IMG/VR virus record: IMGVR_UViG_3300025138_000013
Direction: 5' to 3' (one strand)
Length of the DNA stretch: 64,000 nt
Source: a virus
In this document: in pieces, positions 35,485-55,480 of the stretch
Position numbering within the stretch: position 1 is the first letter of the stretch
Layout: each line of letters starts with the position of its first letter
Position numbers and translations under genes: made by a program
Notes under the pieces: generated by a model
Told to the model about the DNA's origin: nothing
Databases searched by the model: none
What the model saw: the letters and a program-made list of their open reading frames with translations, nothing else

Positions 35485-35685
35485 ATGGGTATTAAAGTCG
35501 AAGGACATAGTCATCTTTACAGAGAAGAAACTTCTCATGCTATTATAAATACAGATATAGAACAATATAGATTACATAAAGTTAGAAAACAGAGGTTTTT
35601 AAATCAAAAAGATGAGATAAATACTCTTAAAAGTGAAGTAACAGAGATGAAATTGATGCTTCAACAATTATTGGATAGGACATAA
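35485..35685 (+). CDS. small coiled-coil protein
   Basis: KVEGHSHLYRE..SHAIIN...EINTLK.EV.EMK.ML; ATG at 35485. Confidence 0.65.
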   Translation: MGIKVEGHSHLYREETSHAIINTDIEQYRLHKVRKQRFLNQKDEINTLKSEVTEMKLMLQQLLDRT

Positions 35686-37316
35686 TGGCAAAAACAGTAG
35701 ACACATACTCAACTATTGAACAGTTTAGAACCAAATACAACGAATTAGCTGTTGATGTTGGTGATAAGTCTGGCCTAAGAACAGAAAATACTCAAACTGT
35801 AATAGATGCACTTAATAGTTTGGAAGATAAGTCATTCTTTTTCCAAGAGTTCATCTATACTGCAACAGCTGGTCAGACAACATACACTGGTGGTGACGAT
35901 TTTGCTAATGTACTTAGATTAAGACAAGATAGATTCCAAGTATTTAAAAATTCAACTCTATTACTAGAGGGTGCAGACTATTCTATATCCCAAGTAACTG
36001 GAAACATCTACTTTAGATTAGTTCTAACTAGTGGTGCATCAGCAGGTGACAAGGTTGTTATATATTCCTTCACAGGTTCATACTTAGGAACATCTACAAT
36101 CGGTGGTCAATCAGTTGGTTTCTTTACAGAGACCGCTGCAAATACAATTTTTAATAATAACGATAGTGGATTAATTTTAAATGGTAATTTTGCAGATGAT
36201 GCTAGCAGGGTAACTACTCTTACTGGTACAAATACAATTGAAATGTATGGTAAGACCTTCCATGATGGCGACTTTACAGTAGACACTGGACATACAATCA
36301 CCGCACCAACCTTTACGGACTCTACAGCAACGATTACAGGCGGTGTGGGTACAGGTTTTAATACTATAACCTCAACAATATTCATTGGTAACTTAAGTGG
36401 TACAACTGCAGCTTTGAGTTCAACGGTAACTGCTGGTGGAGACATTACTTCATCTACAGACATAATTGCTGGAAGTGAATTTGTAATCGGAAGTGCAAGA
36501 ATAGACCAAACAGATTTAGAAAAAATCGATGACCTAGTAAACGGAACTGTAAGTGCTAGTAAAGTAGTTGTAGTAGATTCAAATAAAGATATCACTGGAT
36601 TCAGAAACGTTGGTGCAACAGGTACCATTACTGCTGGTGGAGACATTACTTCATCTACAGATATAATTGCTGGTAGTGAATTCGTAATCGGAAGTGCAAG
36701 AGTAAGTGAGGCCGAACTAGAAATACTAGACGGTGCAACTTTATCTACTACAGAGATTAACTATCTTGACGGAACTACATTAGGAAACGTTGTTGCTAGT
36801 AAAGCAGTTGCAGTATCTTCAGATAAAGATATCACTGGATTTAGAAACATTACTGCAACAGGTACCATATCAACTAGTAGTGAACTAGACGGTGGTTCTT
36901 TAGATATCAGTGGTAATGCAGATATCGATGGTAACTTAGATGTAGGTGGTAACTTAACATTCAATGGTGTAACTTTCCAAGAATACGCACAGGACAAAGT
37001 ATCGGGTCTATTAAACCATGGTTCTCATACAAACATCACTGCAACTTATGACGATGCAGCTGATAAGATTCTACTTACTGGAGTTCCTACATATGGGGAT
37101 AACGATGTCGCTGCATTGACAGTTGGCGGTACTGGTATTACTGAAACATATACTGGAGATGGAAACTCTTTGACATTTGCTACAGACCCAGGCGATGGAT
37201 TGATACATAGTGGTAGTGGAGTATCAGATAAAATTAAATTGGATTATGAAGTGGTTTCTAATGCACCTTCGAGTGTAGGTAGTACAAAAGTGGGACACTT
37301 ATGGTTCGTGGTATAA
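35685..37316 (+). CDS. tail fibre protein 1
   Basis: G/T/S-rich with an internal duplication (TAGGDITSSTDIIAGSEFVIGSAR twice); C-terminal AP..(x7)GHLWF. Confidence 0.7.
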   Translation: MAKTVDTYSTIEQFRTKYNELAVDVGDKSGLRTENTQTVIDALNSLEDKSFFFQEFIYTATAGQTTYTGGDDFANVLRLRQDRFQVFKNSTLLLEGADYSISQVTGNIYFRLVLTSGASAGDKVVIYSFTGSYLGTSTIGGQSVGFFTETAANTIFNNNDSGLILNGNFADDASRVTTLTGTNTIEMYGKTFHDGDFTVDTGHTITAPTFTDSTATITGGVGTGFNTITSTIFIGNLSGTTAALSSTVTAGGDITSSTDIIAGSEFVIGSARIDQTDLEKIDDLVNGTVSASKVVVVDSNKDITGFRNVGATGTITAGGDITSSTDIIAGSEFVIGSARVSEAELEILDGATLSTTEINYLDGTTLGNVVASKAVAVSSDKDITGFRNITATGTISTSSELDGGSLDISGNADIDGNLDVGGNLTFNGVTFQEYAQDKVSGLLNHGSHTNITATYDDAADKILLTGVPTYGDNDVAALTVGGTGITETYTGDGNSLTFATDPGDGLIHSGSGVSDKIKLDYEVVSNAPSSVGSTKVGHLWFVV

Positions 37317-37322
37317 TATGAT

Positions 37323-39068
37323 ATGTCTGAAGAAATATTTGTAAATATAGAAACGGAAATCCAGCAACCGTACAATGCTCGAGTTCCAGTAAATGGTCAA
37401 GAACCAAACATTAGACAGACACAGTCTATCTATACAGCTGAATCTCGTCAGCCCTCAACATATCAATACAGGTCTCCACATATATACACTAGGCCTGTTT
37501 CTGCACAAGAACCAAACATAAGGAATGCAAGGTCACCCTTTACTTATGCAAGACAGGGTCAGACACCTACAATCTATCAACATCAAAGTCCATTCACATA
37601 TGCAAGACAAGCACTGCAACCAGCAACATATGATTTTCAGCAACCATATCCCTATATTGCAACTGCTCAAGAACCAAATGCAAGGTCTTTACAAACTTCT
37701 TATCCTTATATTGCAAATGCTAGACAGCCTGGGTTCTACCAACACCCTAGTCCATTCATATATCAAAACCCTGTAAATGCCCAAGAACCAAACATAAGAG
37801 ATACACAACAACCATATCCTTATATTGCAGTTGCTCAAGAAGCAAATCAAGTAGCTGCACAAGAACCTAATATACGTAATAAGCAGACACCGTTTACTTA
37901 TAATCATAGGTCACCATTCACTTACAGAAATCCAGTGAATAAACAAGAACCTAATATTAGAAACCAACAAGAACCTAATATAAGAAATCAGCAAGAACCT
38001 AATATTAGAAACAGTCAAACAGCGTTTACTTATAATCATAGGTCACCATTTACATATAGGAATCCTGTATCTGCACAACAACCTACTATTAAGAATGCAC
38101 AACAGCCTACTATTAAGAACCAACAGGAACCTAATATTAGAAATGCACAAGCAGCGTTTAATTATAATCATAGGTCACCGTCTACTTATCAGACTCCTGT
38201 TAATAAACAAAATCCTTATCCCTATAGTGCAAATTCTCAGACTGCTTTTACATATCAACATAGGTCACCATTTACTTATGCAAGACAGGGTCAAACACCA
38301 ACGACTTATAATGTACAGACACCAGCAACTACAAGTTCATCAACTCCAATAATTGCCCAACAACCTTCCATATATGATGGAGTGGATGGAGAGGATGCAC
38401 CAAACAATGCAGGCAACACTACTTGGGGCCCAGGCAACAGTGCAGCGATTCATATTAACGCGGGTCAATCTCAGTCAGGCCTCACAACAACAAATAGAAC
38501 TTGGGAAACAGTAAGAACTCATTCTTCAGCTAGTGAAACAAGTGGCAGTTGCTTAATGCGATTCGATTGGCAATCCAGTGGTACCAATGCATATTCAGTT
38601 AAAGCAAAATGGTATGCAGTCGATAGCGCAGCAATGGGCCCAGTTTATGAAGACTATATTAACTTCTATGGAGACTTCCAAGGTGATAGTCAAGATGGAG
38701 ATGGTATAGAGATATCTGCTAAATGGAATTCTAGTTCTGACTTTGATGACAGTAATTTTAGTGGTTCAGTTGAATTTCCAAATGATTCAGCTAACGAAAC
38801 TGGTGCAAAAGTTAAAAACCAATACTATATGATTTGGGATGGAGAACAAAATAGTGATAGTGCAACAGCGGTAGGGTTTAAGTGGTCTGCAAATTCTGGC
38901 AATAGTAACCAATCGGGTTCTTTAGGTTATTTGCAGTCTTCAAACGTTTCAATACAATTAAAAGTTGTGAATGGTAATGATTCGGGTAATCCTACTATCT
39001 ATACAACAAACCCAACGAATCAAATGATTCGATTGTCCATGGCTAAAGGTTCGGGGGCATTATTATAA
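37323..39068 (+). CDS. repeat filament protein A (about 335 aa of Pro-delimited modules plus a ~230-aa C-terminal globular domain)
   Basis: QEPNIR / YxHRSPFTY modules; module order is the mirror complement of ORF 39068. Confidence 0.8.
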   Translation: MSEEIFVNIETEIQQPYNARVPVNGQEPNIRQTQSIYTAESRQPSTYQYRSPHIYTRPVSAQEPNIRNARSPFTYARQGQTPTIYQHQSPFTYARQALQPATYDFQQPYPYIATAQEPNARSLQTSYPYIANARQPGFYQHPSPFIYQNPVNAQEPNIRDTQQPYPYIAVAQEANQVAAQEPNIRNKQTPFTYNHRSPFTYRNPVNKQEPNIRNQQEPNIRNQQEPNIRNSQTAFTYNHRSPFTYRNPVSAQQPTIKNAQQPTIKNQQEPNIRNAQAAFNYNHRSPSTYQTPVNKQNPYPYSANSQTAFTYQHRSPFTYARQGQTPTTYNVQTPATTSSSTPIIAQQPSIYDGVDGEDAPNNAGNTTWGPGNSAAIHINAGQSQSGLTTTNRTWETVRTHSSASETSGSCLMRFDWQSSGTNAYSVKAKWYAVDSAAMGPVYEDYINFYGDFQGDSQDGDGIEISAKWNSSSDFDDSNFSGSVEFPNDSANETGAKVKNQYYMIWDGEQNSDSATAVGFKWSANSGNSNQSGSLGYLQSSNVSIQLKVVNGNDSGNPTIYTTNPTNQMIRLSMAKGSGALL

Positions 39069-40240
39069 TGGCTATTGCTCAACAACCATATAGTTTACAA
39101 CAACCTACTATAGTTTCATATAGGATGCCTTCTATAGCAAGTAAACAGAATCCTTATCCATATATTGCAGCTGCAAGAGCACCTCATATTAGAGAAGCAA
39201 GACAGCCTTCTACATATGATAGACAAGGACAGACACCTACTACATATAGAAATCCAGTGAATGCACAAGAACCTAATATTAGAGAAGCAAGACAACCTAG
39301 TACATACCAACATAGAAGTCCTTTAACATATAGTCACAGGTCACCATTTACCTATCAACATAGGTCACCGTTCACTTATAGAAGTCCAGTGGATGCACAG
39401 GAACCAAACATAAGAGAGGCAAGACAACCTAATACATATAACCATAGAAGTCCTTTAACATATAGTCACAGGTCACCGTCTACGTATCAACATCAAAGTC
39501 CACTCACATATAGAAGTCCAGTGGATGCACAGCAACCAAACATAAGAGGTGCAAGACAACCTAGTTCGTATGAACATAGGTCACCGTTCACCTATGAGAC
39601 AAGAAGTCCATTTACATATGCAAGACAAGCAATAAGACAAGTTGCATATCAACATCAAAGTCCGTTCACTTATCAGAAATCTAGTAATGCACAAACAAAT
39701 GTTGTAAAGGCAAATCAAACACCATTTACGTATCAAAGAACTGGTCAACAACCAAGTATCTATCAACATAGAAGTCCATTTACGTATGCTAGACAAGGTC
39801 AACAACCAGCTATTGGTAACCGTGATGTACCTTATCCATATATTGCAATTGGAAATCAACCTGTTGCTAGGGATAAGCAATTACCTTATCCATATATTGC
39901 AGCTGGACAAACTCCGTCAACGTATAACCATAGAAGTCCGTTCACATATCAAAGCACAGTACAAGGACAAGAACCTAATATAAGAAATACACAATCACCT
40001 TTCTTCTATAATGCTGGTTCTCAGATATCATATCAACATCAAAGTCCGTTTACCTATCAAGTGACTTACTCACATCAAAGAGTCATACCTAGATATGCAA
40101 AAGTTAAAGGTGTATTCATTAATGATAATGGAACTCTGAAAAAGGTAGAAGAAGCTTATGTAAATGATGGTGGAACTGCAAAGAAAACACATCAATCTGT
40201 ACCGACTGCTCAGTTCCCATTTGGTGAGTTTGGTGCTTAA
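39068..40240 (+). CDS. repeat filament protein B (partner of A)
   Basis: Coupled to A by a TAATG overlap; C-terminal VFINDNG/AYVNDGG hairpin repeats. Confidence 0.8.
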   Translation: MAIAQQPYSLQQPTIVSYRMPSIASKQNPYPYIAAARAPHIREARQPSTYDRQGQTPTTYRNPVNAQEPNIREARQPSTYQHRSPLTYSHRSPFTYQHRSPFTYRSPVDAQEPNIREARQPNTYNHRSPLTYSHRSPSTYQHQSPLTYRSPVDAQQPNIRGARQPSSYEHRSPFTYETRSPFTYARQAIRQVAYQHQSPFTYQKSSNAQTNVVKANQTPFTYQRTGQQPSIYQHRSPFTYARQGQQPAIGNRDVPYPYIAIGNQPVARDKQLPYPYIAAGQTPSTYNHRSPFTYQSTVQGQEPNIRNTQSPFFYNAGSQISYQHQSPFTYQVTYSHQRVIPRYAKVKGVFINDNGTLKKVEEAYVNDGGTAKKTHQSVPTAQFPFGEFGA

Positions 40241-44875: not shown

Positions 44876-45094
44876 ATGGCAACACAAAATACATTCGTAA
44901 TTGAGTACGGACTTACAGTTGGTTCAACAGAAGTTATTTCCTCTGCAGGAAAACTAGCTGTATCAGCAATATCTTTACTTACTTCAGATAACTTAACGGA
45001 AGGTTCTTCGAACCAATACTTTACTTCAAGTAGATTTAACACTTCATTCGATACTAGATTATCAAATGCAGTTATTGATGGGGGTACAATCTAA
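44876..45094 (+). CDS. small fibre linker protein
   Basis: FVIEYGLTVG N-terminus like ORF 45094, LTEGSSNQYFT, C-terminal IDGGTI. Confidence 0.65.
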   Translation: MATQNTFVIEYGLTVGSTEVISSAGKLAVSAISLLTSDNLTEGSSNQYFTSSRFNTSFDTRLSNAVIDGGTI

Positions 45095-47985
45095 TGGCAG
45101 GAGAAAAGAATTTTATACTGAAGAACGGTTTATCCGTAGGAACAAATGATGTTCTAGATAGTTCGGGTGACTTAGTAGCAGGTGCATTTGGTACTGCAGC
45201 TATAGAGGTCATCGATGACCACGTTGCAAATACCTTACTAACAGCAGGTGCAGGCATTGGGCTTGCATATGATGACTCTGCTGGAACACTTACAATCACA
45301 GGACAAGTTGGTGATATTACAGGAGTTAACGCAGGACTTGGTTTAACTGGTACTGCAACTAGTGGAGATGCAACATTAAACATTGGTGCTGGTACAGGTA
45401 TTACTGTAAATGCAGATGACATTGCAATCAACTTTAAAGACGAAGATAATATGGCATCAGATAGTGCCGTACATGCAGCTACTCAACAATCAATTAAAGC
45501 ATATGTTGACACTCAAGTTGCAACAGTTCCAGTTGGAGACATAACAAGTGTTGTTGCTGGAGCAGGTTTAACAGGTGGTGGAACAAGTGGTGATGTAACA
45601 GTAAATGCTATTGCTGGAACAGGTATCACAGTTAATGCAGATAGTATTGAAGCTGATATGACTGCAATTAGAGCAAGTATCGATGGTGCAGACCTTGATA
45701 TGAGTGGTAACAAAGTATTATTTGGTAACATGTATGCTCAAGAAGCAGACTTACCAAGTGCAAGTACATATCATGGTATGTTTGCACATGTACATGGAAC
45801 AGGAGCAGGTTATTTTGCTCATGCTGGTGCATGGAAAAAATTACTAGATGAGTCTAGTTCAACAACTGCAAACTTAACAGAAAACACAAACCTGTATTAT
45901 ACAGATGCAAGAGCAGATGCAAGGATTACAAATGCACTTATAGATGAAGACGATTTCTCATCCAATAGTGCTACTAAGATTCCTTCACAACAATCTACAA
46001 AAGCATATATTGCTACACAGATTGCAACTAAAGATAATTCAGACGAAATTACAGAAGGTTCAAGTAACCTTTATCACACCACTGCAAGAGCAAGAGCATC
46101 TATAAGTGCTGGTGGTGACTTAGCATACAACAGTACAACTGGTGTAATGAGTTTCACAAACGATGCTGGAGATATTTCTTCAGTAGTTGCTGGTAACGGT
46201 TTAACTGGTGGTGCAACTACTGGTGACGCAACCTTGACGGTTGGTGCTGGTACAGGTATTACAGTTAACTCAACTAACGTTGCAGTTAATATGGGTGCAT
46301 TTGATTCAGATGACTTAAACGAAGGCTCAACTAATCTATATCACACTACAGAAAGAGTTCAAGATATTGCTGGAGCAATGTTCAGTTCAAATACTGAAAC
46401 AGGTATTGCAGTAACATATGACGATGCAGACGGAACAATAGACCTTGCAGTAGACGCAGAATTTATTTCAGATACAGTTGGTAACATGGTCACTTCTAAT
46501 ACAGAAAGTGGTCTTACAGTTACGTATCAAGATGCAGATAACACTTTAGACTTTGCAGTCGGAACACTTAACCAAGATACAACAGGATTAGCAGGAACTG
46601 CTACAGCACTTGCAAGTGCAAGAACTATCTCGGGTGTTTCATTTGACGGTACAGCAAACATCACACTAAACACTGGTGGAATCACAGAGAGTGGTAACCT
46701 TTACTTTACAAACGAAAGAGTGGATGACAGAGTTAATGCATTAATTGTTGGCGGAACAAACATAACTGCAACATACGATGATTCAGCTGGAACACTTACA
46801 ATTGACGGTAACGCAGCGGACATCACAGGTGTTACAGCTGGAGACGGTTTATCGGGTGGTGGTTCAAGTGGTACAGTTACTTTAAACCTAGATGCTTCAG
46901 TAGCAGGTGACGGTCTTGCACATTCAAGTGGTGTTCTATCAGTCGGAGTAGACGATAGTTCAATCGAAACAAATTCAGATGCATTAAGAGTTAAAGCACT
47001 TGGTGTTACTAATGCCATGTTAGCAGGTTCAATTGCAAACAGTAAACTTGCAAATGACAGTGTAACAATTAACTCACAGTCAGTAGACTTAGGTGCTTCA
47101 GTTACTTTAAACACATCTCACATTGGTGAGAGTGGTAACTTATACTTCACAGATGAAAGAGTTGACGATAGAGTTAACGCTTTAATTACTGCTGGTGTAA
47201 ACGTTGCAACAACATACGATGATTCAGCTGGAACACTAGAAATTAGAGTACCTTACGAAAACATTCAAGACACAGTTGGAACTCAATTTGCTACAAACGG
47301 TTCACACACAAACATAACTGCAACATACGATGATGCTGGTGACGGTGCAATTGACCTTTCAATTACAGATGCAACAATCAGAGCAAAACACTCTGCAGTT
47401 TCAAACGGAATTGGTGGACTAGCATATAGTACTTCGACAGGTGCATATACTTACACAGGGCCTTCTGCAACAGAAGTAAGAGCTCAACTAAGTGGTGGTA
47501 CTGGTGTTGCATACAGTGGTGGTGAATTCAGTATTGGACAGGCAGTTGCAACAACTAGTGATGTTACCTTTGCAGACGTATCTGCAAGTGGTAACCTTGT
47601 AGTTACAGGTAACTTGACAGTTAACGGTTCAACAGTAACAAATAGTTCAACTAACACAACAATCGAAGATTCATTGATTGAGTTAGGAAGTGGAACAACT
47701 GGTTCTCCATCGGGTGACGCAGGTATTGTCATTGAAAGAGGTGATGAAAGTAACGTGTTTATGGGTTGGGACGACAGTGCATCAAGTTTTGCATTCGGAA
47801 CAACTACTGCAACAGGTTCTTCAACTGGTGCATTAACAGTGACACCAGCAGCGGTATCTACAGGTGCATTGACAATAACAAATGCATCCAACAGTGGTGG
47901 AACTGCAAGAAATGTTTACCAATCAACATCGGCTCCAACAGGTGGGCAAGGTGCAGTTGGTGATATGTGGATTCTTTACTCCTAA
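45094..47985 (+). CDS. tail fibre protein 2 (long)
   Basis: GDIT.V.AG.GL.GG and EG..NLY.T..R repeats; C-terminal AP..(x6)GDMWI. Confidence 0.8.
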   Translation: MAGEKNFILKNGLSVGTNDVLDSSGDLVAGAFGTAAIEVIDDHVANTLLTAGAGIGLAYDDSAGTLTITGQVGDITGVNAGLGLTGTATSGDATLNIGAGTGITVNADDIAINFKDEDNMASDSAVHAATQQSIKAYVDTQVATVPVGDITSVVAGAGLTGGGTSGDVTVNAIAGTGITVNADSIEADMTAIRASIDGADLDMSGNKVLFGNMYAQEADLPSASTYHGMFAHVHGTGAGYFAHAGAWKKLLDESSSTTANLTENTNLYYTDARADARITNALIDEDDFSSNSATKIPSQQSTKAYIATQIATKDNSDEITEGSSNLYHTTARARASISAGGDLAYNSTTGVMSFTNDAGDISSVVAGNGLTGGATTGDATLTVGAGTGITVNSTNVAVNMGAFDSDDLNEGSTNLYHTTERVQDIAGAMFSSNTETGIAVTYDDADGTIDLAVDAEFISDTVGNMVTSNTESGLTVTYQDADNTLDFAVGTLNQDTTGLAGTATALASARTISGVSFDGTANITLNTGGITESGNLYFTNERVDDRVNALIVGGTNITATYDDSAGTLTIDGNAADITGVTAGDGLSGGGSSGTVTLNLDASVAGDGLAHSSGVLSVGVDDSSIETNSDALRVKALGVTNAMLAGSIANSKLANDSVTINSQSVDLGASVTLNTSHIGESGNLYFTDERVDDRVNALITAGVNVATTYDDSAGTLEIRVPYENIQDTVGTQFATNGSHTNITATYDDAGDGAIDLSITDATIRAKHSAVSNGIGGLAYSTSTGAYTYTGPSATEVRAQLSGGTGVAYSGGEFSIGQAVATTSDVTFADVSASGNLVVTGNLTVNGSTVTNSSTNTTIEDSLIELGSGTTGSPSGDAGIVIERGDESNVFMGWDDSASSFAFGTTTATGSSTGALTVTPAAVSTGALTITNASNSGGTARNVYQSTSAPTGGQGAVGDMWILYS

Positions 47986-48036: not shown

Positions 48037-49527
48037 ATGGCAACAGGTTCACAAAAGGTCAAAACACCAGCAGGTTGGAATTCAACTCAAGGTGCATGGG
48101 TAAAAACAGCTAGTTCCACATGGAAAGCAGTTGACCAAATCTATATTAAAACTCCTACAGGATGGAATAATGCGTCAGGGCAGACTGCAACTCAAGTTCC
48201 TTACCCATACATTGCAAATGGACAAGAACCCAATATAAGAAACAAACAGAATCCGTATCCTTATATTGCAAATGCACAAGAGCCTAACATAAGGAACAAA
48301 CAGAATCCTTATCCATACATTGCAAATGCACAAGAACCTAATATAAGAAGCCAACAACAACCGTATCCTTATATAGCACAAGCAAGACAACCTAGTACAT
48401 ACCAACATAGAAGTCCATTTACATATAGTAATGTTGGTCAACAACCTACTACTTATCAACATAGGTCACCGTTCACTTATAGGAATCCTGTAAATGCACA
48501 AGAGCCTAATATAAGGAATGCACAAACACCGTTCACTTACAGAAATCCAGTGAATGGACAAGAACCTAATATTAGAGATGCAAGACAGCCTGCAACTTAT
48601 CAACATAGGTCTCCTTTAACATACTCACATAGGTCACCATTTACCTATCAACATAGGTCTCCATTCACATATAGAAATCCAGTGAATGCACAAGAACCTA
48701 ATATTAGAAATGCAAGACAACCTTCTACGTATCAACATAGGTCACCGTTAACATATAGTCATAGAAGTCCTTTAACGTATACTCATAGGTCACCATTTAC
48801 ATATAGAAGTCCTGTATCTGCACAAGAGCCTAACATAAGAGAAGCAAGACAACCTTCTACGTATCAACATAGAAGTCCTTTAACATATAGTCATAGGTCA
48901 CCGTCTATTTACCAACATAGGTCACCATTTACATATAGAAGTCCTGTATCTGCACAAGAACCTAATATTCGTTCTGCACAACAACCGTATCCTTATATTG
49001 CAGCTGCACAACAACCTAATATTCGTGCTGCACAACAACCTACTATTAAGAACCAACAGGAACCTAATATTAGAAATAATCAGGCACCATTTACGTACAA
49101 TCATAGGTCACCGTTCACTTATAGGAATCCTGTATCTGCACAACAACCTAATATTCGTTCTGCACAAGAACCTAATATTAGAAGTTCACAAACACCATTT
49201 ACATATAGTGCAAGGTATCCAGCGAATGCACAGCAACCTTTTACATTCCAAGCACCATTTACGTACAGGAACCCTACTAACGCAAGGCAACCTAACAGTG
49301 CAAGGAACCCATTCACATATAGACAACCTTATATAGCGAATGGAAGACAACCAAATAGTGCAAGGAACCCATTCACATATAGAGTACCGTACATTGCAAA
49401 CGCAAGAACTGGAACACCCGCTAGGTCACCAAGTATTGCACAACAACCCTCAACGTACCAGCACAGAAGTCCATTTACATACTACTTTGCTTACGGTGGC
49501 GGAGGGCAGAATTTTTATGAACCATAA
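48037..49527 (+). CDS. repeat filament protein C
   Basis: N-terminal triple (V/I)KTxxxW motif, then more than 54 Pro-delimited modules that mirror ORF 49579. Confidence 0.8.
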   Translation: MATGSQKVKTPAGWNSTQGAWVKTASSTWKAVDQIYIKTPTGWNNASGQTATQVPYPYIANGQEPNIRNKQNPYPYIANAQEPNIRNKQNPYPYIANAQEPNIRSQQQPYPYIAQARQPSTYQHRSPFTYSNVGQQPTTYQHRSPFTYRNPVNAQEPNIRNAQTPFTYRNPVNGQEPNIRDARQPATYQHRSPLTYSHRSPFTYQHRSPFTYRNPVNAQEPNIRNARQPSTYQHRSPLTYSHRSPLTYTHRSPFTYRSPVSAQEPNIREARQPSTYQHRSPLTYSHRSPSIYQHRSPFTYRSPVSAQEPNIRSAQQPYPYIAAAQQPNIRAAQQPTIKNQQEPNIRNNQAPFTYNHRSPFTYRNPVSAQQPNIRSAQEPNIRSSQTPFTYSARYPANAQQPFTFQAPFTYRNPTNARQPNSARNPFTYRQPYIANGRQPNSARNPFTYRVPYIANARTGTPARSPSIAQQPSTYQHRSPFTYYFAYGGGGQNFYEP

Positions 49528-49578: not shown

Positions 49579-50937
49579 ATGCCTATAGGTAATAGACAGC
49601 AACCCGCTAGCAGATTTGCTCAAACATCTGTCAATGTACAGACGCCTTCGATTGTGCAACAACCGTTTACATATAGTGCAAGATATCCAGCGAATGCACA
49701 GCAACCTTTTACATTCCAAGCACCATTTACGTATAATGCTAGATATCCAGCGAATGCACAACAACCGTTCACATTCCAAGCACCATTTACGTATAGGAAC
49801 CCTACTAACGCAAGACAACCAAATAGTGCAAGGAACCCATTTACATATAGACAACCGTACATTGCAAATGCAAGGCAACCTAATTCATACCAACATAGGT
49901 CACCATTTACGTACAGTTATGGGTCTCCATTTACATATAGGGTTCCTGTATCTGCACAAGAACCTAATATTCGTTCTGCAAGACAACCGAGTTCATATCA
50001 ACATAGAAGTCCTTTGACGTATTCACACAGGTCACCGTTTACGTATAGTCATAGGTCACCATTTACGTATGCTAGGCAAGGTCAAACACCGTTTACTTAT
50101 AATCATAGGTCACCATTCACTTACAGAAATCCAGTAAATGCACAAGAACCTAATATTAGAAGCAATCAGCAACCTAACATTAGAAGTCAACAAGAACCTA
50201 ATATTAGAAATGCACAAGCAGCGTTTACATATAACCATAGAAGTCCGTTCACTTATAGGAATCCTGTATCTGCACAAGAGCCTAATATTAGAAACCAACA
50301 AGAACCTAATATAAGAAATCAGCAAGAACCTAATATTAGAAACAATCAAGCACCATTTACGTACAATCATAGGTCACCGTCTACTTATCAGAATCCTAGT
50401 AATGCACAGGAACCTAATATTCGTTCTGCACAACAACCTAATATTAGAAGTCAACAAGAGCCTAATATTAGAAACAATCAGACACCGTTTACGTATAGTC
50501 ATAGGTCACCGTTTACTTATCAGAATCCTAGTAATGCACGTCAACCTTCTACGTATCAACATAGGTCGCCGTTCACTTATAGGAATCCTGTAAATGCACA
50601 AGAGCCTAATATTAGAAACAGAGATACTACATTCCCTTACATCGCAGTAGCCCAAGAACCTAATATAAGGAATGCACAAACACCGTTCACATATCAAAGA
50701 ACTGGTCAGTCACCTGTAATATATTCTCACAGGTCACCATTTACGTATGCTAGACAAGGTCAAACACCAACGACTTATAACCATAGAAGTCCGTTCACGT
50801 ATCAAAGAACTGGTCAAACACCAACGACTTATCAACATAGAAGTCCGTTTACATATAATAGAACTGGTCAAACGCCTGAAGCAAGATGGGATGGAGTGGT
50901 ATCACAACAGTGGCCTGCAACACCAATTACGTCATAG
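49579..50937 (+). CDS. repeat filament protein D (partner of C)
   Basis: Module string is the reverse complement of C. Confidence 0.8.
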   Translation: MPIGNRQQPASRFAQTSVNVQTPSIVQQPFTYSARYPANAQQPFTFQAPFTYNARYPANAQQPFTFQAPFTYRNPTNARQPNSARNPFTYRQPYIANARQPNSYQHRSPFTYSYGSPFTYRVPVSAQEPNIRSARQPSSYQHRSPLTYSHRSPFTYSHRSPFTYARQGQTPFTYNHRSPFTYRNPVNAQEPNIRSNQQPNIRSQQEPNIRNAQAAFTYNHRSPFTYRNPVSAQEPNIRNQQEPNIRNQQEPNIRNNQAPFTYNHRSPSTYQNPSNAQEPNIRSAQQPNIRSQQEPNIRNNQTPFTYSHRSPFTYQNPSNARQPSTYQHRSPFTYRNPVNAQEPNIRNRDTTFPYIAVAQEPNIRNAQTPFTYQRTGQSPVIYSHRSPFTYARQGQTPTTYNHRSPFTYQRTGQTPTTYQHRSPFTYNRTGQTPEARWDGVVSQQWPATPITS

Positions 50938-51023: not shown

Positions 51024-52601
51024 ATGCAGAAAATTGAAACCCTAGAACAAGCAAAAGAATTAATAAAACCTTACGACCCTAAGATAACCTCACAAGAGAG
51101 ACAGGCCATAGGCAATTTTCATCTAGGTGCATTTAATATAGAACCAGGCTATTCAAAAACCTCAGAAAGTTATAAAATACTTGAATGGATGTTTGAAGAA
51201 ATTTTACCACCAGTAAAGATTGCAAAGTGGAAAGACTTTGAATATCTAAGAAAGGAAAATAGATTTGGTGGGTTCAATGGGTTAAGAAATGAGTCAGTAA
51301 CATATCATAAATTTTTACCAGTCGGTTATGCAGAGAAACCTAGAAAACCTATTCCAGGCGTAGCAGGTATGGACATGAAAGATTCCGATGGATATGTTAA
51401 TATAGATACATTAATTGATTGGGACTCAGTTGAAAACAGAGACGAACATGCAGAAGGGTCACTATTGTCTATGTACTATCACGGTGCAAAAGCACATTGG
51501 TTAATTCAAAGTATTCAAGAGGAAGGTTTAAGAGCTCCTATTCAAGGGTATGTTGTAGATAATGGTTCCAGTGGTATGAGTACTGAATCTAGTTACACAT
51601 TTAGAATACACCCAGGCTCTATTCGTTCGGGTGTCTTTGAAGAGATGCAAGATAATGATATGGAAATTATGGTAATAGATAATTTTGATGTTGTGAAAGT
51701 GGAACCATCAAGCCTTGACAGCGTATTACAGATGTGGTATAATAAGTTACAAAGACTTAATAAACCATTTCATTGTTCATTTACATATGTAGATGGTTGT
51801 ATTGAATACAATACTGCATTAATGGACTTAGATTTTAGAGATGAAGTACATGCATTTAACAAACAAGTTTATGAACTTGCAAAAGGTAAACCTCTAACAA
51901 TCTATATCGGACATGATAGTAGACATGGAGATTTGTCTAAGCTTTCTAAGTTTGCAATCCTAGAAAGTATTAAAAGCGGATTTGGTAATGGATGGATGCA
52001 TGACCAAATCAGATGGCAACCCGAAGTTAAAATACTTGACATTGCTGAGATTCCCGAGTATACTAGAGAATATGCAAATCAAAGTACTGAATTTACATAC
52101 AGTAGATTCTTAATACCTTATCTAGAGAACTATGAAGGATTTAGTATCTTTATTGATGACGATTTCATCTTTAAGAAAAGTATATTACCTATGTTTTATT
52201 ACTTAAACCCTAATGATGCTGTTGCATGTATACAATATCCACAATACAAACATGATGAAACAAAGTTTGATGGTGAAGTTAATATAGATTACCCTAAGAA
52301 GCTTTGGTCTAGTATGATGGTATTCAATAATGGACATGAAGACTGTAAGAAGCTAACACCCGAAGTTGTTAACACTTGGACAGGAAAACAGCTACATCAA
52401 TTTGAGTGGACAGATAAAATCTCTAAAATACCCGAACATTATATCTTTGTAGAAGGATATGATAACCATGAAGAAAAGTACAACTACAGTGGTATACATT
52501 ATACACGTGGTGGCCCATGGGTAAAAGGGATGGATTATTCAACCATAAATAATCTTGAAGACTTTTTAAAAGTGAAAAGAACATTGCCAATTGGCGATTA
52601 G
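51024..52601 (+). CDS. fusion of a ParB/Srx-like N-terminal domain and a GT-A glycosyltransferase
   Basis: C-half IYIGHDSR, STEFTYSRFLIPYL, FIDDDF, YPKKLWSS, LHQFEW, IHYTRGGPW; N-half KAHWLI..RIHPGSIR. Confidence 0.75.
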   Translation: MQKIETLEQAKELIKPYDPKITSQERQAIGNFHLGAFNIEPGYSKTSESYKILEWMFEEILPPVKIAKWKDFEYLRKENRFGGFNGLRNESVTYHKFLPVGYAEKPRKPIPGVAGMDMKDSDGYVNIDTLIDWDSVENRDEHAEGSLLSMYYHGAKAHWLIQSIQEEGLRAPIQGYVVDNGSSGMSTESSYTFRIHPGSIRSGVFEEMQDNDMEIMVIDNFDVVKVEPSSLDSVLQMWYNKLQRLNKPFHCSFTYVDGCIEYNTALMDLDFRDEVHAFNKQVYELAKGKPLTIYIGHDSRHGDLSKLSKFAILESIKSGFGNGWMHDQIRWQPEVKILDIAEIPEYTREYANQSTEFTYSRFLIPYLENYEGFSIFIDDDFIFKKSILPMFYYLNPNDAVACIQYPQYKHDETKFDGEVNIDYPKKLWSSMMVFNNGHEDCKKLTPEVVNTWTGKQLHQFEWTDKISKIPEHYIFVEGYDNHEEKYNYSGIHYTRGGPWVKGMDYSTINNLEDFLKVKRTLPIGD

Positions 52602-53192: not shown

Positions 53193-53897
53193 ATGGATTT
53201 AAACGTTGAGTTAGAGTTCATCAAAGAACCTTTCCATATCAAAGATATGCCTTTGAAAAAAGTATACGTTTTAGACGATTACTTATCTACAACAATGCAT
53301 CATTGTATTGATGATAAAATAACTAGAAATGCTTTTTGGGGAAAAAGTAATCAAGTAAACTCAAACAGTCCTACAGGATTACCTCATCATAGTTTTTGGG
53401 GAGCAGGTTTCTTCAGAGGCCATGACCAAGAAATAGAACATGATATGGAACCCAAAAAAACATATCTTATGAGATGGTTTAATAGAAAGTTACAAACCGA
53501 CTTTGGATTTATGTGGGAGAGATTTCAATACTTTGGTTTGAATTCTCAGACTCAAGGACTAGAGGGAACAACACATGCAGATTGTGAACCTCAAGATGAT
53601 TGGAATCTTTCATTTTTATATTATCCAAATAAATTTTGGAATGATTCTTGGGGGGGTTCTTTAAGAATGTATGATAAAATGCAACAAGGAATACACGGAA
53701 GAGCAGACCATATTAAAAATCATCAAGTTGCAGAAGTGTATTTTAAACCTAATAGATTATTAATATTTGATGGAAGAATACCACATGGTGCAGACGCACC
53801 CAAACCAGCTGCAAAGTATATGGATAGACGTTCTTTGGTTATAAGAGGGGACGAAATTAGTCTAAGGACTTTATGGGGTGAAGATGCCTACGATTGA
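53193..53897 (+). CDS. 2OG-Fe(II) oxygenase (prolyl hydroxylase-like)
   Basis: HAD (HxD), LYYPN..W...WGGSL, FKPNRLLIFDGRIPH, R. Confidence 0.8.
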   Translation: MDLNVELEFIKEPFHIKDMPLKKVYVLDDYLSTTMHHCIDDKITRNAFWGKSNQVNSNSPTGLPHHSFWGAGFFRGHDQEIEHDMEPKKTYLMRWFNRKLQTDFGFMWERFQYFGLNSQTQGLEGTTHADCEPQDDWNLSFLYYPNKFWNDSWGGSLRMYDKMQQGIHGRADHIKNHQVAEVYFKPNRLLIFDGRIPHGADAPKPAAKYMDRRSLVIRGDEISLRTLWGEDAYD

Positions 53898-54783
53898 ATT
53901 TACATGTTATGATAAAGAAACCACAGAGAATTGGAAACCAGTTCTAGCAAAGAAACTAGTTCCCGATTGGTGGAAGACTATGAAAGTTCAAGAGAATGTT
54001 CGTGGTCATAAAACTCAGACTATAAGGTCATGTCCTGCTATGGATGACTGGTTAAAGACTGGGTGGTATCTTTGTGCAAAGAAAGACATGAAAGTATTTG
54101 TAAGTGAACATTCTAGTAAATCAAGAACAGACCCACAAGACAGACTTTCATCACCAACACATCCAGCTGGACAAGCAGGTCATCAATTTACTTACTTATC
54201 TAAAGAAGATGCACCAACAAAAGATGCATTCAAAATGAAAGCACCATGGAATATTATTACTCCGCCAGGCTATTCTTGTCTATACCTAGACCCCTTTCTA
54301 TTTCAAAATAAGTATTTTGCAACATGGCAAGGTATGATTGATACAGATGCATTTAATGTGAATATGGATAACTCTCAGATTATTTTCTATCCTAAAACGA
54401 ATAAAGACTTTACAATTAAAGCTGGAACACCATTGGTTCAAATCATTCCATACAGAAGAGAAGATTGGACAGCATCATATATAACTTATGACAATAAATC
54501 GTGGCAAGAAAATAGGTCAGTTAGAACTACTCATAGAGTAGGTGAAGATGGTGGTAAGTTAAAAACAATGGATGAGTGGAATAGGTCACCCGAACTTAGA
54601 GAAGAGAAGAGGCATATCGAAGGAATGGCAGGTGCCTATAGAAGAATTAAGTATTGGAATGAGAAGGGAAGAATGTTTAAAGAAGAGAATCCACCACCCG
54701 AGTGTCCTATGCATAATCCCGATTTAGTAGAACATAAAGCAGAAGTGCAGTTGGATTTATTTGGAGACCAAGATGACAGTTAG
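53878..54783 (+). CDS. conserved phage protein (DUF6065-like)
   Basis: PDWWK, RSCPAM.D....GW, PW.IITPPGYS, G.IDTD, IKAGTPLVQIIP. Confidence 0.6.
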   Translation: MKMPTIEFTCYDKETTENWKPVLAKKLVPDWWKTMKVQENVRGHKTQTIRSCPAMDDWLKTGWYLCAKKDMKVFVSEHSSKSRTDPQDRLSSPTHPAGQAGHQFTYLSKEDAPTKDAFKMKAPWNIITPPGYSCLYLDPFLFQNKYFATWQGMIDTDAFNVNMDNSQIIFYPKTNKDFTIKAGTPLVQIIPYRREDWTASYITYDNKSWQENRSVRTTHRVGEDGGKLKTMDEWNRSPELREEKRHIEGMAGAYRRIKYWNEKGRMFKEENPPPECPMHNPDLVEHKAEVQLDLFGDQDDS

Positions 54784-55480
54784 ATTAGCATTCCCTACAT
54801 TTATATTTGAAAGAGATGTACTTGACAAAAAGTATGGTAATGCTTCAGTATCAAAAGAATACTTAACATCCCTTAAGAATGAGATGGATGCATGGAGACA
54901 AAGAGACCCAAAAGGTAGACAAATATCAAACAGATATACTGGTTGGCAGTCTCAAGATGGTGTAGAAAAACATCCAGCCTTTCAAAAGATTATTAGATGT
55001 ATTGAAGCTGCATTGAGAGATGAAGTGCAACAATTCTTTAGAGTTCATCCCGACGATTCACAAATCAAAATAGATAATACATGGGCAAACATAAATGATA
55101 AAGGTGCATGGAATACACCACATTTACACAATGGTTGTTGGTATAGTGGAGTCTTTTACGTACATGGAGACGGTGATGAAGGTAACCTTCAACTAATCAA
55201 TACAGACCCGAAGGTAGTTGCAGACCATCCTACTAACGCTAGAATGCACGAGAGTATGGGATATGGGCCTGTTACTGGAAGACTTATAATGTTTCCTAGT
55301 GGTGCAATGCATATGGTAGAACCCAATCCTACAGACAAAGAAAGATACTCAATTTCATTCAATTGTAGAGTACAACAAATAACAAATAGTCGTGAAAGAA
55401 GAGACCCTCAAGGGAATCCACCTCATGAGAATGAATTTACTTTTGAATTAGATGAATTAGGCAACCCCACACTGAACTAA
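54773..55480 (+). CDS. 2OG-Fe(II) oxygenase (TIGR02466-like)
   Basis: FPT.IF, WANIN..G.WN.PHLH..CWYSGVFYV, G.LIMFPS..MH.V.PN....RYSISFN; likely ATG near 54773. Confidence 0.8.
   Translation: MTVRLAFPTFIFERDVLDKKYGNASVSKEYLTSLKNEMDAWRQRDPKGRQISNRYTGWQSQDGVEKHPAFQKIIRCIEAALRDEVQQFFRVHPDDSQIKIDNTWANINDKGAWNTPHLHNGCWYSGVFYVHGDGDEGNLQLINTDPKVVADHPTNARMHESMGYGPVTGRLIMFPSGAMHMVEPNPTDKERYSISFNCRVQQITNSRERRDPQGNPPHENEFTFELDELGNPTLN

What the first reader, a model, noticed from the sequence alone, without database searches (positions are those of the whole stretch)
37323..40240. Second, independent complementary pair (A/B): same code, different module order
SEEN: A (37323) read backwards from IIAQQP to YNARVP matches B (39068) read forwards from YSLQQP to YSHQRV for 43 consecutive modules (about 332 aa). 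The 6/8/10 length pattern is identical and the pairing rules are the same, e.g. FTYARQGQTP/YPYIAAARAP, FTYQHRSP/HIREARQP, YPYSANSQTA/STYDRQGQTP, VNKQNP/TTYRNP, NIRNQQEP/LTYSHRSP, FTYARQALQP/YPYIAIGNQP. Some module boundaries lack the Pro and were placed by length. Degenerate modules face degenerate partners (NQVAAQEP/FTYETRSP, GFYQHPSP/VVKANQTP, ATYDFQQP/AIGNRDVP, YTAESRQP/FFYNAGSQ), which looks like compensatory co-variation. The genes are coupled by a TAATG overlap, consistent with 1:1 stoichiometry. INFERENCE: a second pair with a different order makes coincidence very unlikely, and module order may act as a barcode that keeps A:B and C:D apart.
Basis: partly seen in the sequence, partly recalled or inferred. 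Interest (0 to 1): 0.92.

Follow-up and report, generated by a model that had tools for sequence, protein, structure and literature searches.

The report
Mirror-complementary phage fibre protein pair
Two overlapping genes of a marine T4-like phage encode proline-punctuated repeat proteins whose module strings are exact mirror-complements over about 330 residues; dozens of related phages and fused single-chain versions keep this pattern, which points to an undescribed fold-back fibre stalk held together by a binary pairing code between two protein strands.

Summary
A (37323-39068) read C-to-N aligns without a single gap to B (39068-40240) read N-to-C over 329 residues. Prolines face prolines (32 of 43). 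Every Tyr-type module (F class) faces a non-Tyr module (N class) of the same length. Shuffling A's modules gives z = 24.

The rule holds in 41 distinct adjacent gene pairs from related uncultured phages, with 35 different module strings and arms of 182-538 aa. F faces N in 1341 of 1420 equal-length module pairs; F faces F in 9. Partner lengths covary (r = 0.999 in one subgroup). The rule survives swapped gene order. In a syntenic relative one 458-aa protein, whose N-arm mirrors its C-arm, replaces A+B.

All 197 Pro-Pro spacings in the four window arms are even.

Best reading: A and B are the two arms of a split fold-back stalk, most likely a two-stranded antiparallel beta-ribbon. Conserved termini form the base and A's beta-sandwich domain sits at the tip. 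Physical pairing is inferred, not shown: structure predictors gave no usable answer.

No Pfam, PHROG, PDB or literature precedent was found.

The parts
35685..37316 (+). Upstream fibre-like gene (543 aa) that forms a conserved three-gene cassette with A and B. Its C-terminus carries a conserved Trp-containing motif.
   Evidence: In all 38 assessable loci the pair is directly preceded by a large gene ending in this motif. A-type and C/D-type pairs each have their own variant. It is orthologous to the gene upstream of the single-chain form in L092. No Pfam hit.
37323..39068 (+). Gene A, 581 aa: base segment, repeat arm and tip domain.
   Evidence: ORF, translation. No Pfam, PHROG or PDB relative.
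37323..37370 (+). A residues 1-16: conserved N-terminal 'base' segment.
   Evidence: Nearly invariant among 13 A-type homologues. The same N-terminus heads the single-chain forms.
37371..38375 (+). A repeat arm (residues 17-351): Pro-delimited modules of 6, 8 or 10 aa in two classes.
   Evidence: Mirror-complementary to the B arm. All 41 Pro-Pro spacings are even. Holds 2.7 copies of a 132-nt (44 aa) tandem unit at 37859-38210.
38376..39065 (+). A tip domain (residues about 352-581): all-beta globular domain.
   Evidence: AlphaFold2 gives pLDDT 75-90 for residues 366-581, with 12 strands. Fold matches are weak only: Z <= 4.3 to pilin/adhesin-type beta-sandwiches. The domain is shared with other family members such as P0100 and P0060.
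39066..39070 (+). TAATG: stop codon of A overlaps the start codon of B.
   Evidence: Read directly from the sequence.
39068..40240 (+). Gene B, 390 aa: repeat arm and base domain.
   Evidence: ORF, translation. 430 metagenomic relatives at E <= 1e-5, none of the 120 listed carrying a descriptive name.
39077..40084 (+). B repeat arm (residues 4-339).
   Evidence: Faces the A arm in reverse, F against N. All 39 Pro-Pro spacings are even. Holds 2.6 copies of a 132-nt unit at 39242-39579.
40085..40237 (+). B C-terminal 'base' domain (residues 340-390), made of two copies of a short Asn/Asp-Gly hairpin-like motif.
   Evidence: Holds 13 of the 31 invariant columns of the 11-sequence B-type alignment. 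The same domain ends the single-chain forms. The motif recurs in small phage proteins of phrog_13729.
45094..47985 (+). Upstream fibre-like gene of the sister cassette (963 aa), with the C/D-type C-terminal motif.
48037..49527 (+). Gene C, first chain of the sister pair.
   Evidence: Reversed C 55-481 aligns gaplessly with D 7-433 (427 aa, 582 bits). 54 of D's 59 prolines coincide. Module shuffling gives z = 41.
49579..50937 (+). Gene D, second chain of the sister pair.

Best explanation
A and B are the two arms of a split fold-back (hairpin) fibre stalk of a pelagimyophage-like T4-type phage.

Each arm is a string of proline-terminated modules of 6, 8 or 10 residues in two classes. F modules have Thr-Tyr at positions 2-3. 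N modules lack it. The arms lie side by side, antiparallel and in one fixed register over about 330 residues. Each F module faces an N module of equal length, and prolines face prolines.

The most likely conformation is a continuous two-stranded antiparallel beta-ribbon. The prolines would sit on the outward, non-hydrogen-bonded edge, and one face would carry the class-specific side chains: Tyr over Ala/Gly, Gly under Tyr, Phe with Glu/Gln, His with Arg.

A's conserved N-terminus and B's conserved C-terminal domain meet at the virion-proximal base, probably docked to the fibre protein encoded just upstream. A's beta-sandwich domain and B's N-terminus meet at the distal tip, where the domain probably binds the host.

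The irregular order of 6-, 8- and 10-residue modules fixes the register and favours the cognate partner.

Shown: the sequence complementarity, its conservation and co-variation, the parity rule, and the fused orthologue. Inferred: physical pairing, beta conformation, base/tip polarity and function.
For: 1. A single gapless reverse diagonal of 329 aa, z = 24 against module shuffles, with a unique register (324 bits against 131 when slipped).
2. Class rule over 41 distinct pairs: 1341 of 1420 equal-length facing modules are F/N, 9 are F/F and 70 are N/N.
3. Co-variation. There are 35 distinct module strings and arm spans of 182-538 aa, and a median 93% of arm prolines face a proline. Partner lengths track each other: in the Hint subgroup (n = 9) lengths run 452-774 against 242-562 aa, differences 197-212, r = 0.999. 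In the subgroup without Hint the difference is about 44-46. A-type orthologues have different central module orders, each matched by its own B. The cognate partner ranks first in 26 of 41; in most of the rest the higher-scoring partners come from loci with the same or nearly the same protein lengths, taken as orthologues without measuring identity.
4. Pairing does not depend on gene order: D-like-first pairs in L061-L071 are still complementary.
5. Fused single-chain forms exist (P0010, P0011, P0008, P0030, P0034 and others). Their N-arm (about 16-160) mirrors the C-arm (about 300-440) around a non-repeat domain of about 140 aa. P0034 sits in the exact syntenic slot of A+B, between orthologous neighbours of 46% and 67% identity.
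6. Strict two-residue parity: 197 of 197 Pro-Pro spacings are even in arms A-D, and 121 of 122 in a divergent dialect. This is what a continuous beta-ladder requires.
7. Within-class covariation is confined to odd positions, i.e. one face. Corrected MI is 0.6-0.9 bit for facing modules and 0.1-0.3 when the partner is shifted by one or two modules. Even positions give about 0.
8. No DNA-level inverted repeat could generate the pattern.
9. Base ends are the conserved parts and tips are the variable parts, as is usual for proximal and distal fibre ends.
Against: - No direct evidence of binding or of any structure.
- Part of the odd-position covariation may reflect junction context and the joint inheritance of 44-aa units, rather than residue contacts.
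- N-class modules have only moderate beta propensity (my own judgement).
- Phage fibres are normally parallel homotrimers, so a two-stranded heteromeric ribbon would be unusual and may be only one element of a larger assembly.
- A few metagenomic pairs (L015, L027, L031) are mismatched by exact multiples of 44 aa.
- About half of the single-chain homologues show no clear gapless self-register.
- Two divergent dialects (L091, P0151) keep equal or similar arm lengths and parity, but not proline-to-proline facing.
Confidence: 0.7

Rival explanations
1. The two arms do not contact each other in register. Both lie, in opposite directions, on a third component such as the trimeric fibre encoded upstream, or inside a larger multi-chain bundle. 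The mirror-complementarity would then reflect the symmetry of that scaffold.
For: Every pair is preceded by a conserved fibre gene. Phage fibres are usually trimeric (general knowledge). Structure predictors did not fold the heterodimer.
Against: A scaffold does not explain why F must face N of equal length at every one of more than 1300 module positions. It also does not explain why covariation is specific to directly facing modules. Arm lengths vary from 182 to 538 aa; whether the upstream gene varies in step was not tested.
Confidence: 0.12
2. There is no ordered pairing. The arms are flexible or disordered spacers that only need equal contour length because both ends are tethered at base and tip. 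The module classes reflect composition or solubility constraints.
For: AlphaFold2 gives pLDDT 25-35 for all arms. The divergent dialects keep arm length and parity but not proline facing.
Against: An equal-length requirement does not predict class complementarity (9 F/F against 1341 F/N). It also does not predict a unique register, strict even parity, or non-canonical stretches facing non-canonical stretches.
Confidence: 0.08
3. The pairing is real but the conformation is not a beta-ribbon. For example, two extended polyproline-II-like strands, or a kinked ribbon wound into a compact solenoid.
For: Regular prolines. 2OG-Fe(II) oxygenase genes of the family that includes prolyl hydroxylases lie in the same cluster, and one lies between the two genes in L076.
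Against: PPII has a three-residue period, whereas every spacing is even and 8 and 10 are not multiples of 3. There is no Gly-X-Y or Gly-rich pattern.
Confidence: 0.1

Closest known systems
Streptococcal antigen I/II (SpaP/SspB) stalk: A-region alpha-helix paired with P-region polyproline-II helix (from memory, Larson et al. 2010)
   Same: Two different repeat regions pair antiparallel to form a long thin fold-back stalk that presents a globular adhesive domain at its tip. The number of repeats on the two sides is matched.
   Different: AgI/II is a single chain with one arm all-alpha and the other all-PPII, in 82- and 39-residue repeats. Here both arms contain both module classes in short 6/8/10-residue units with a position-by-position binary complement. 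The parity points to beta. The stalk is often split into two polypeptides. There is no sequence relationship.
Antiparallel coiled-coil hairpin stalks (SMC/Rad50 arms, dynein stalk)
   Same: Fold-back stalks in which two antiparallel segments of matched length pair in a defined register and carry a functional domain at the tip.
   Different: Those use heptad-based alpha-helices. Here there is a proline every 6-10 residues and no heptads.
Phage and viral beta-structured fibre shafts (adenovirus/reovirus triple beta-spiral; T4 gp34-gp37 long tail fibre)
   Same: Repetitive, proline/glycine-punctuated beta-rich fibre shafts encoded in the host-recognition gene cluster of a T4-like phage (PMC7029224). 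Distal segments are chained onto proximal ones.
   Different: Known shafts are parallel homotrimers with repeats of about 15 residues or irregular repeats. None shows two chains, or two halves of a chain, with reverse-complementary module order. There are no Pfam or PHROG matches to those families.
Cross-strand pair preferences in antiparallel beta-sheets, such as 'aromatic rescue of glycine' (from memory, Merkel and Regan 1998)
   Same: Tyr of F modules faces Ala/Gly of N modules, and Gly of the 10-residue F module faces Tyr of the 10-residue N module.
   Different: That is a local statistical preference in globular proteins. Here it would be used as a repeating code over hundreds of residues.

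Membership tests
Triple beta-spiral fibre shaft (adenovirus/reovirus type) | Pseudo-repeats of about 15 residues with conserved hydrophobic positions and a Pro/Gly turn, in a parallel homotrimer. | tested here: not met
   Module lengths are 6, 8 and 10 only. The arms are complementary between two different chains in reverse orientation.
Collagen-like phage fibre | Gly-X-Y triplet repeats. | tested here: not met
   No Gly periodicity in the translations. Pro spacing is even, not a multiple of 3.
Antigen I/II-type alpha/PPII stalk | An Ala-rich heptad-containing A-repeat arm and a Pro-rich 39-residue P-repeat arm flanking a V domain. | tested here: not met
   Both arms are mixtures of the same two short module classes. 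No Pfam match.
T4-type long tail fibre proteins (gp34-gp37 families) | Sequence-profile match to the known tail-fibre families. | tested here: not met
   No Pfam hit for A or B. In PHROGs, A has no hit and B has only a weak hit to an unknown-function family on its last 35 residues. No PDB sequence relative for A; B was not searched.
Hint/intein-like autoprocessing domain (PF14890 and relatives) | A C-terminal domain of about 150 aa that starts with Cys after the cleavage site and ends in His-Asn. | tested here: not met
   Absent from A, B, C and D of the window. Present in homologues of the first chain: P0040, P0076, P0081, P0098, and by sequence reading P0072 and P0110.
Cementoin / trappin transglutaminase-substrate repeats (PF10511) | Tandem hexapeptide Gln/Lys substrate repeats scoring above Pfam's gathering threshold. 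| tested here: not met
   No hit on A or B. Only C scores 27.4 against a cut-off of 27, on one 27-residue stretch, which is probably compositional.
Proposed new family: mirror-complementary F/N module stalk | Two arms, on adjacent genes or in one chain, whose Pro-delimited even-length modules are reverse-complementary in class and equal in length. | tested here: met
   A/B. Family-wide.
Proposed new family: mirror-complementary F/N module stalk | Direct antiparallel physical pairing of the arms. | not testable with these tools
   Structure predictions were uninformative (see Tried and rejected). This needs biochemistry or cryo-EM.

The most novel reading that the evidence does not exclude
These phages use a protein analogue of nucleic-acid duplex formation. 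A binary module alphabet (F/N) in three lengths lets two polypeptide strands zip antiparallel over 180-540 residues in a unique, sequence-addressed register. This gives thin fibres of roughly 60-180 nm if fully extended, whose length and partner specificity evolve by coordinated gain and loss of 44-aa units. In many relatives a Hint domain at the tip would process the hairpin end, or even ligate it to the partner's N-terminal Pro, and cluster-encoded 2OG-Fe(II) oxygenases may modify the regular prolines.
Probability: 0.4. Interest if true: 0.95.

Novelty: categorically new. Interest (0 to 1): 0.88.

Why it matters
If the arms really pair as the sequences imply, this is a new principle of protein architecture. 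It would be a long, register-specific, heteromeric (or fold-back) strand pairing encoded by a simple binary module code, evolved naturally and tunable in length.

It would explain a set of abundant, unannotated genes in the host-recognition cluster of phages that infect some of the ocean's most numerous bacteria.

It would give protein designers a ready-made addressable 'protein duplex' vocabulary.

It offers a clean natural experiment in inter-chain co-evolution: 35 architectures, split and fused forms, and apparent one-unit mismatch intermediates.

It is also a class of ordered-by-pairing sequence that current structure predictors score as disordered.

Tried and rejected
Structure prediction:
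- AlphaFold2 on the natural single-chain hairpin P0010 with an 18-sequence alignment gave mean pLDDT 35 and unfolded arms.
- The complex prediction of A(1-352)+B gave no verdict: score 0.00, controls not run. It is neither support nor evidence against.
- AlphaFold2 on A folds only the C-terminal domain. Foldseek against the PDB gave no match at E <= 0.001, and VIA-align gave Z <= 4.3 to pilin/adhesin-like sandwiches, so the fold is unassigned.

Database searches:
- PDB sequence search with A and D: nothing at E <= 1.
- Pfam and PHROGs: nothing for the arms.
- ESM Atlas: only unnamed viral clusters.
- Cluster look-up: only 'hypothetical protein' or 'uncharacterized protein'.
- blastn of the locus against 50,697 phage records: no match.
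- Genome collection of 185,579 species: one hit, in a MAG contig.
- Literature searches for fibre, beta-ribbon, Hint and pelagimyophage terms found no description of this. PMC7029224 only defines the hypervariable host-recognition cluster.

Rejected explanations:
- Antisense or inverted-DNA origin. There are no long inverted repeats, and the minus-strand ORF translations listed over genes A and B show no F- or N-type modules.
- Chance or low complexity.
- Trivial self-palindromy of the 44-aa unit. A's unit has one F8 and three N8 and B's has the converse. A:A and B:B reverse scores are only 107-115 bits against 324 for A:B.
Full report
**Context.** The window is the structural region of a T4-like myovirus. 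PHROG profiles identify baseplate wedge and hub proteins, tail sheath and large terminase. Pfam identifies a neck protein, a gp15-like protein and a 2259-aa DUF4815 protein. The record is a 70-kb IMG/VR contig. Notes from the same genome report a curli csgG/csgF operon. Pelagimyophages are described as carrying such an operon, and as having a hypervariable 'host recognition cluster' between the giant VrlC gene and the neck gene (PMC7029224). On that basis I take the 2259-aa protein to be the VrlC equivalent; this was not tested. A/B and C/D lie in that interval, among fibre-like genes.

**The observation.** A (581 aa) and B (390 aa) overlap by TAATG. Both are built from modules that end in Pro and are 6, 8 or 10 residues long.

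The modules fall into two classes:
- F modules have Thr-Tyr at positions 2-3. Typical forms are FTYQHRSP, FTYRNP and FTYARQGQTP.
- N modules lack it. Typical forms are NIRNAQEP, VNAQEP and YPYIANAQEP.

I first tested the claim without any tokenising. With A reversed, 32 of B's 43 prolines coincide on one gapless diagonal, against 22 on the next-best diagonal and 22 for the best forward alignment. For C/D the count is 54 of 59.

I then used a residue-pair matrix learned only from C/D-type pairs in other loci. The local gapless alignment covers A 23-351 against B 4-332 (329 aa, 324 bits). The forward alignment scores 14, A:A and B:B score 107-115, and a register slipped by one 44-aa unit scores 131. 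Shuffling the order of A's modules 300 times gives mean 57, sd 10 and maximum 91, so z = 24. For C/D, scored with a matrix from A-type pairs, z = 41.

There is no DNA inverted repeat longer than 22 nt, and the minus-strand ORF translations listed over the two genes show no F- or N-type modules. The pattern therefore cannot be a by-product of nucleic-acid symmetry.

**Comparative evidence.** Two scans of IMG/VR returned 82 loci. They contain 41 distinct complete adjacent pairs, and all show the same gapless reverse proline coincidence.
- Of 1420 facing modules of equal length, 1341 are F against N, 9 are F against F and 70 are N against N.
- There are 35 different module-length strings and arm spans of 182-538 aa. 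A median 93% of arm prolines face a proline.
- Partner lengths co-vary. In the nine pairs whose first chain carries a Hint domain, lengths run 452-774 and 242-562 aa with a constant difference of 197-212 (r = 0.999). In most pairs without Hint the difference is 44-46.
- Orthologous A-type pairs at 54-89% identity have different central module orders, and each is mirrored in its own B.
- In an all-against-all test the cognate second chain is the top partner in 26 of 41 cases. In most of the others the higher-scoring partners come from loci with the same or nearly the same protein lengths; I took these as orthologues without measuring identity.
- In six pairs the gene order is swapped, D-like first and C-like second, and complementarity persists.
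- Nearly all module-rich genes in these loci have such a neighbour. The apparent singletons are mostly pairs separated by a small inserted gene or a non-ATG start, or genes cut by locus ends; L080 is a lone single-chain-type protein with little self-complementarity.

**Fused forms.** Among 430 metagenomic homologues of B are proteins of about 450-520 aa that begin like A and end like B. In P0010, P0011, P0008, P0030, P0034 and several others, the N-arm (about 16-160) is the gapless mirror-complement of the C-arm (about 300-440), around a non-repeat domain of about 140 aa. About half of the 21 examined give a clear register; the rest are ambiguous.

P0034 lies on a 146-kb Tara scaffold in exactly the slot of A+B. 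It sits between orthologues of the window's upstream fibre gene (46% identity) and the downstream 109-aa gene (67% identity). A+B is therefore the split version of a single fold-back protein. Other relatives (P0100, P0060) have runs of F8 directly followed by equal runs of N8 ahead of an A-like C-terminal domain, which reads as tight intrachain hairpins.

**Structural inference.** All 197 Pro-Pro spacings in the arms of A, B, C and D are even, as are 121 of 122 in a divergent relative. A strict two-residue period over hundreds of residues is what a continuous beta-ladder needs, and it is not the three-residue period of polyproline II.

With prolines facing prolines at constant parity, every proline can occupy a non-hydrogen-bonded (outward) site of a two-stranded antiparallel ribbon. 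That costs no inter-strand hydrogen bond and blocks lateral sheet growth. This is inference from standard beta-sheet geometry.

The facing residues are:
- On the other parity: Phe with Glu/Gln, Tyr with Ala/Gly, His with Arg, Ser with Asn.
- On the proline parity: Thr with Gln, Arg with Ile.
- In 10-residue modules: Gly faces Tyr.

Within-class covariation is confined to the odd positions. Corrected mutual information is 0.6-0.9 bit for facing modules, 0.1-0.3 when the partner is shifted by one or two modules, and about 0 for even positions. Part of this may come from junction context and the joint inheritance of 44-aa units, so I treat it as consistent with one interacting face, not as proof.

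Non-canonical stretches tend to face non-canonical stretches: phi is 0.42 against 0.08 when shifted, and 0.20 for A/B.

**Polarity.** A's first 16 residues and B's last 50 are the most conserved parts, and they are shared with the single-chain forms. The other end is variable. It can be A's beta-sandwich domain (AlphaFold2 pLDDT 75-90, weak pilin/adhesin-like matches), a different domain in P0010, a Gly-run in C, or a Hint domain.

Every pair is also preceded by a large fibre-like gene whose product ends in a conserved Trp motif, with one variant for A-type and another for C/D-type pairs (38 of 38 assessable loci). I therefore place the base next to that fibre and the variable tip distal, as the likely host-binding end. 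This is inference.

**Specificity.** Only the cognate pairs are complementary over the full length. However, A:C and B:D share 125-132 aa of good complementarity through their common 44-aa units. Both genes of each pair carry similar copy numbers of a 132-nt tandem unit. The 'barcode' idea is plausible but not absolute.

**Limits.** Binding, stoichiometry and conformation are not shown, and the structure predictors gave nothing usable for the arms. Three metagenomic pairs are mismatched by exact multiples of 44 aa. These are either assembly errors in tandem repeats or natural intermediates. Two divergent 'dialects' keep parity and equal or similar arm lengths without strict proline facing.

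**Novelty.** No Pfam, PHROG, PDB, Atlas or source annotation names these proteins, and none of the papers found describes them. The nearest concepts are fold-back stalks made of other elements, such as the antigen I/II alpha/PPII stalk and antiparallel coiled-coil arms. None of them uses a binary, position-by-position module complement.

Noticed in passing
Homologues P0040, P0076, P0081, P0098, P0072, P0110; loci L005-L011, L053-L056, L063, L091: Many first-chain homologues, C-like and some A-like, end in a Hint/intein-like domain (PF14890, E down to 8e-15). It starts with Cys right after a Gly-run at the predicted hairpin tip and ends in His-Asn plus a short tail with no Cys/Ser/Thr at +1. 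The partner chain then starts Met-Pro. This suggests autoprocessing at the tip, or possibly ligation to the partner. The window's C ends in the Gly-run without Hint.
   Followed up: partly
window 35685-37316 and 45094-47985; all loci: Each pair is preceded by a large fibre-like gene whose product ends in a conserved Gly-x-x-Trp motif. A-type and C/D-type pairs have different variants. It looks like a conserved three-gene cassette.
   Followed up: partly
window 53193-53897 and 54761-55480; L076 5917-6663: Two 2OG-Fe(II) oxygenase genes (PF13640, PF13759) lie 2-4 kb downstream of D. In L076 a PF13759 oxygenase gene sits directly between the two hairpin genes. They may modify these Pro-regular proteins post-translationally.
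   Followed up: partly
L061, L064-L067, L071: Gene order is inverted (D-like first, C-like second) in a subgroup with short arms (209-233 and 260-291 aa). Complementarity is kept.
   Followed up: yes
L015, L027, L031: Pairs whose length difference deviates from the family norm by exactly one or two 44-aa (132-nt) units. These are either tandem-repeat assembly errors or natural one-sided unit indels.
   Followed up: partly
L091 3848-7744 (MAG contig labelled Rhodobacterales); P0151: Divergent 'dialects' of the family. L091 uses 40-aa units with different internal proline positions in the two chains, but the same 211-aa length difference and even parity. P0151 is a single chain with 16-residue modules in one arm and 14-residue modules in the other.
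   Followed up: partly
window 40085-40237 (B residues 340-390): B's base domain is two copies of a short Asn/Asp-Gly hairpin-like motif. The motif also occurs in 2-3 copies at the N-terminus of small (160-200 aa) phage proteins of phrog_13729, whose function is unknown.
   Followed up: partly
L046, L051, L054, L073, L074: In a subgroup the first chain carries yet another C-terminal tip domain of about 150 aa, and a gene of about 95 aa is inserted between the two hairpin genes. The arms are still complementary (283-297 bits).
   Followed up: partly
window 51024-52601: The 525-aa protein just downstream of D has a weak glycosyltransferase family 8 match (E = 8e-4, below the cut-off) and matches phrog_28018. 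This agrees with the glycosyltransferases reported in pelagimyophage host-recognition clusters.
   Followed up: no
window 48037-49527 (C): A borderline Pfam Cementoin (transglutaminase-substrate hexapeptide) hit, 27.4 bits against a cut-off of 27, on one 27-residue stretch. Probably compositional.
   Followed up: no
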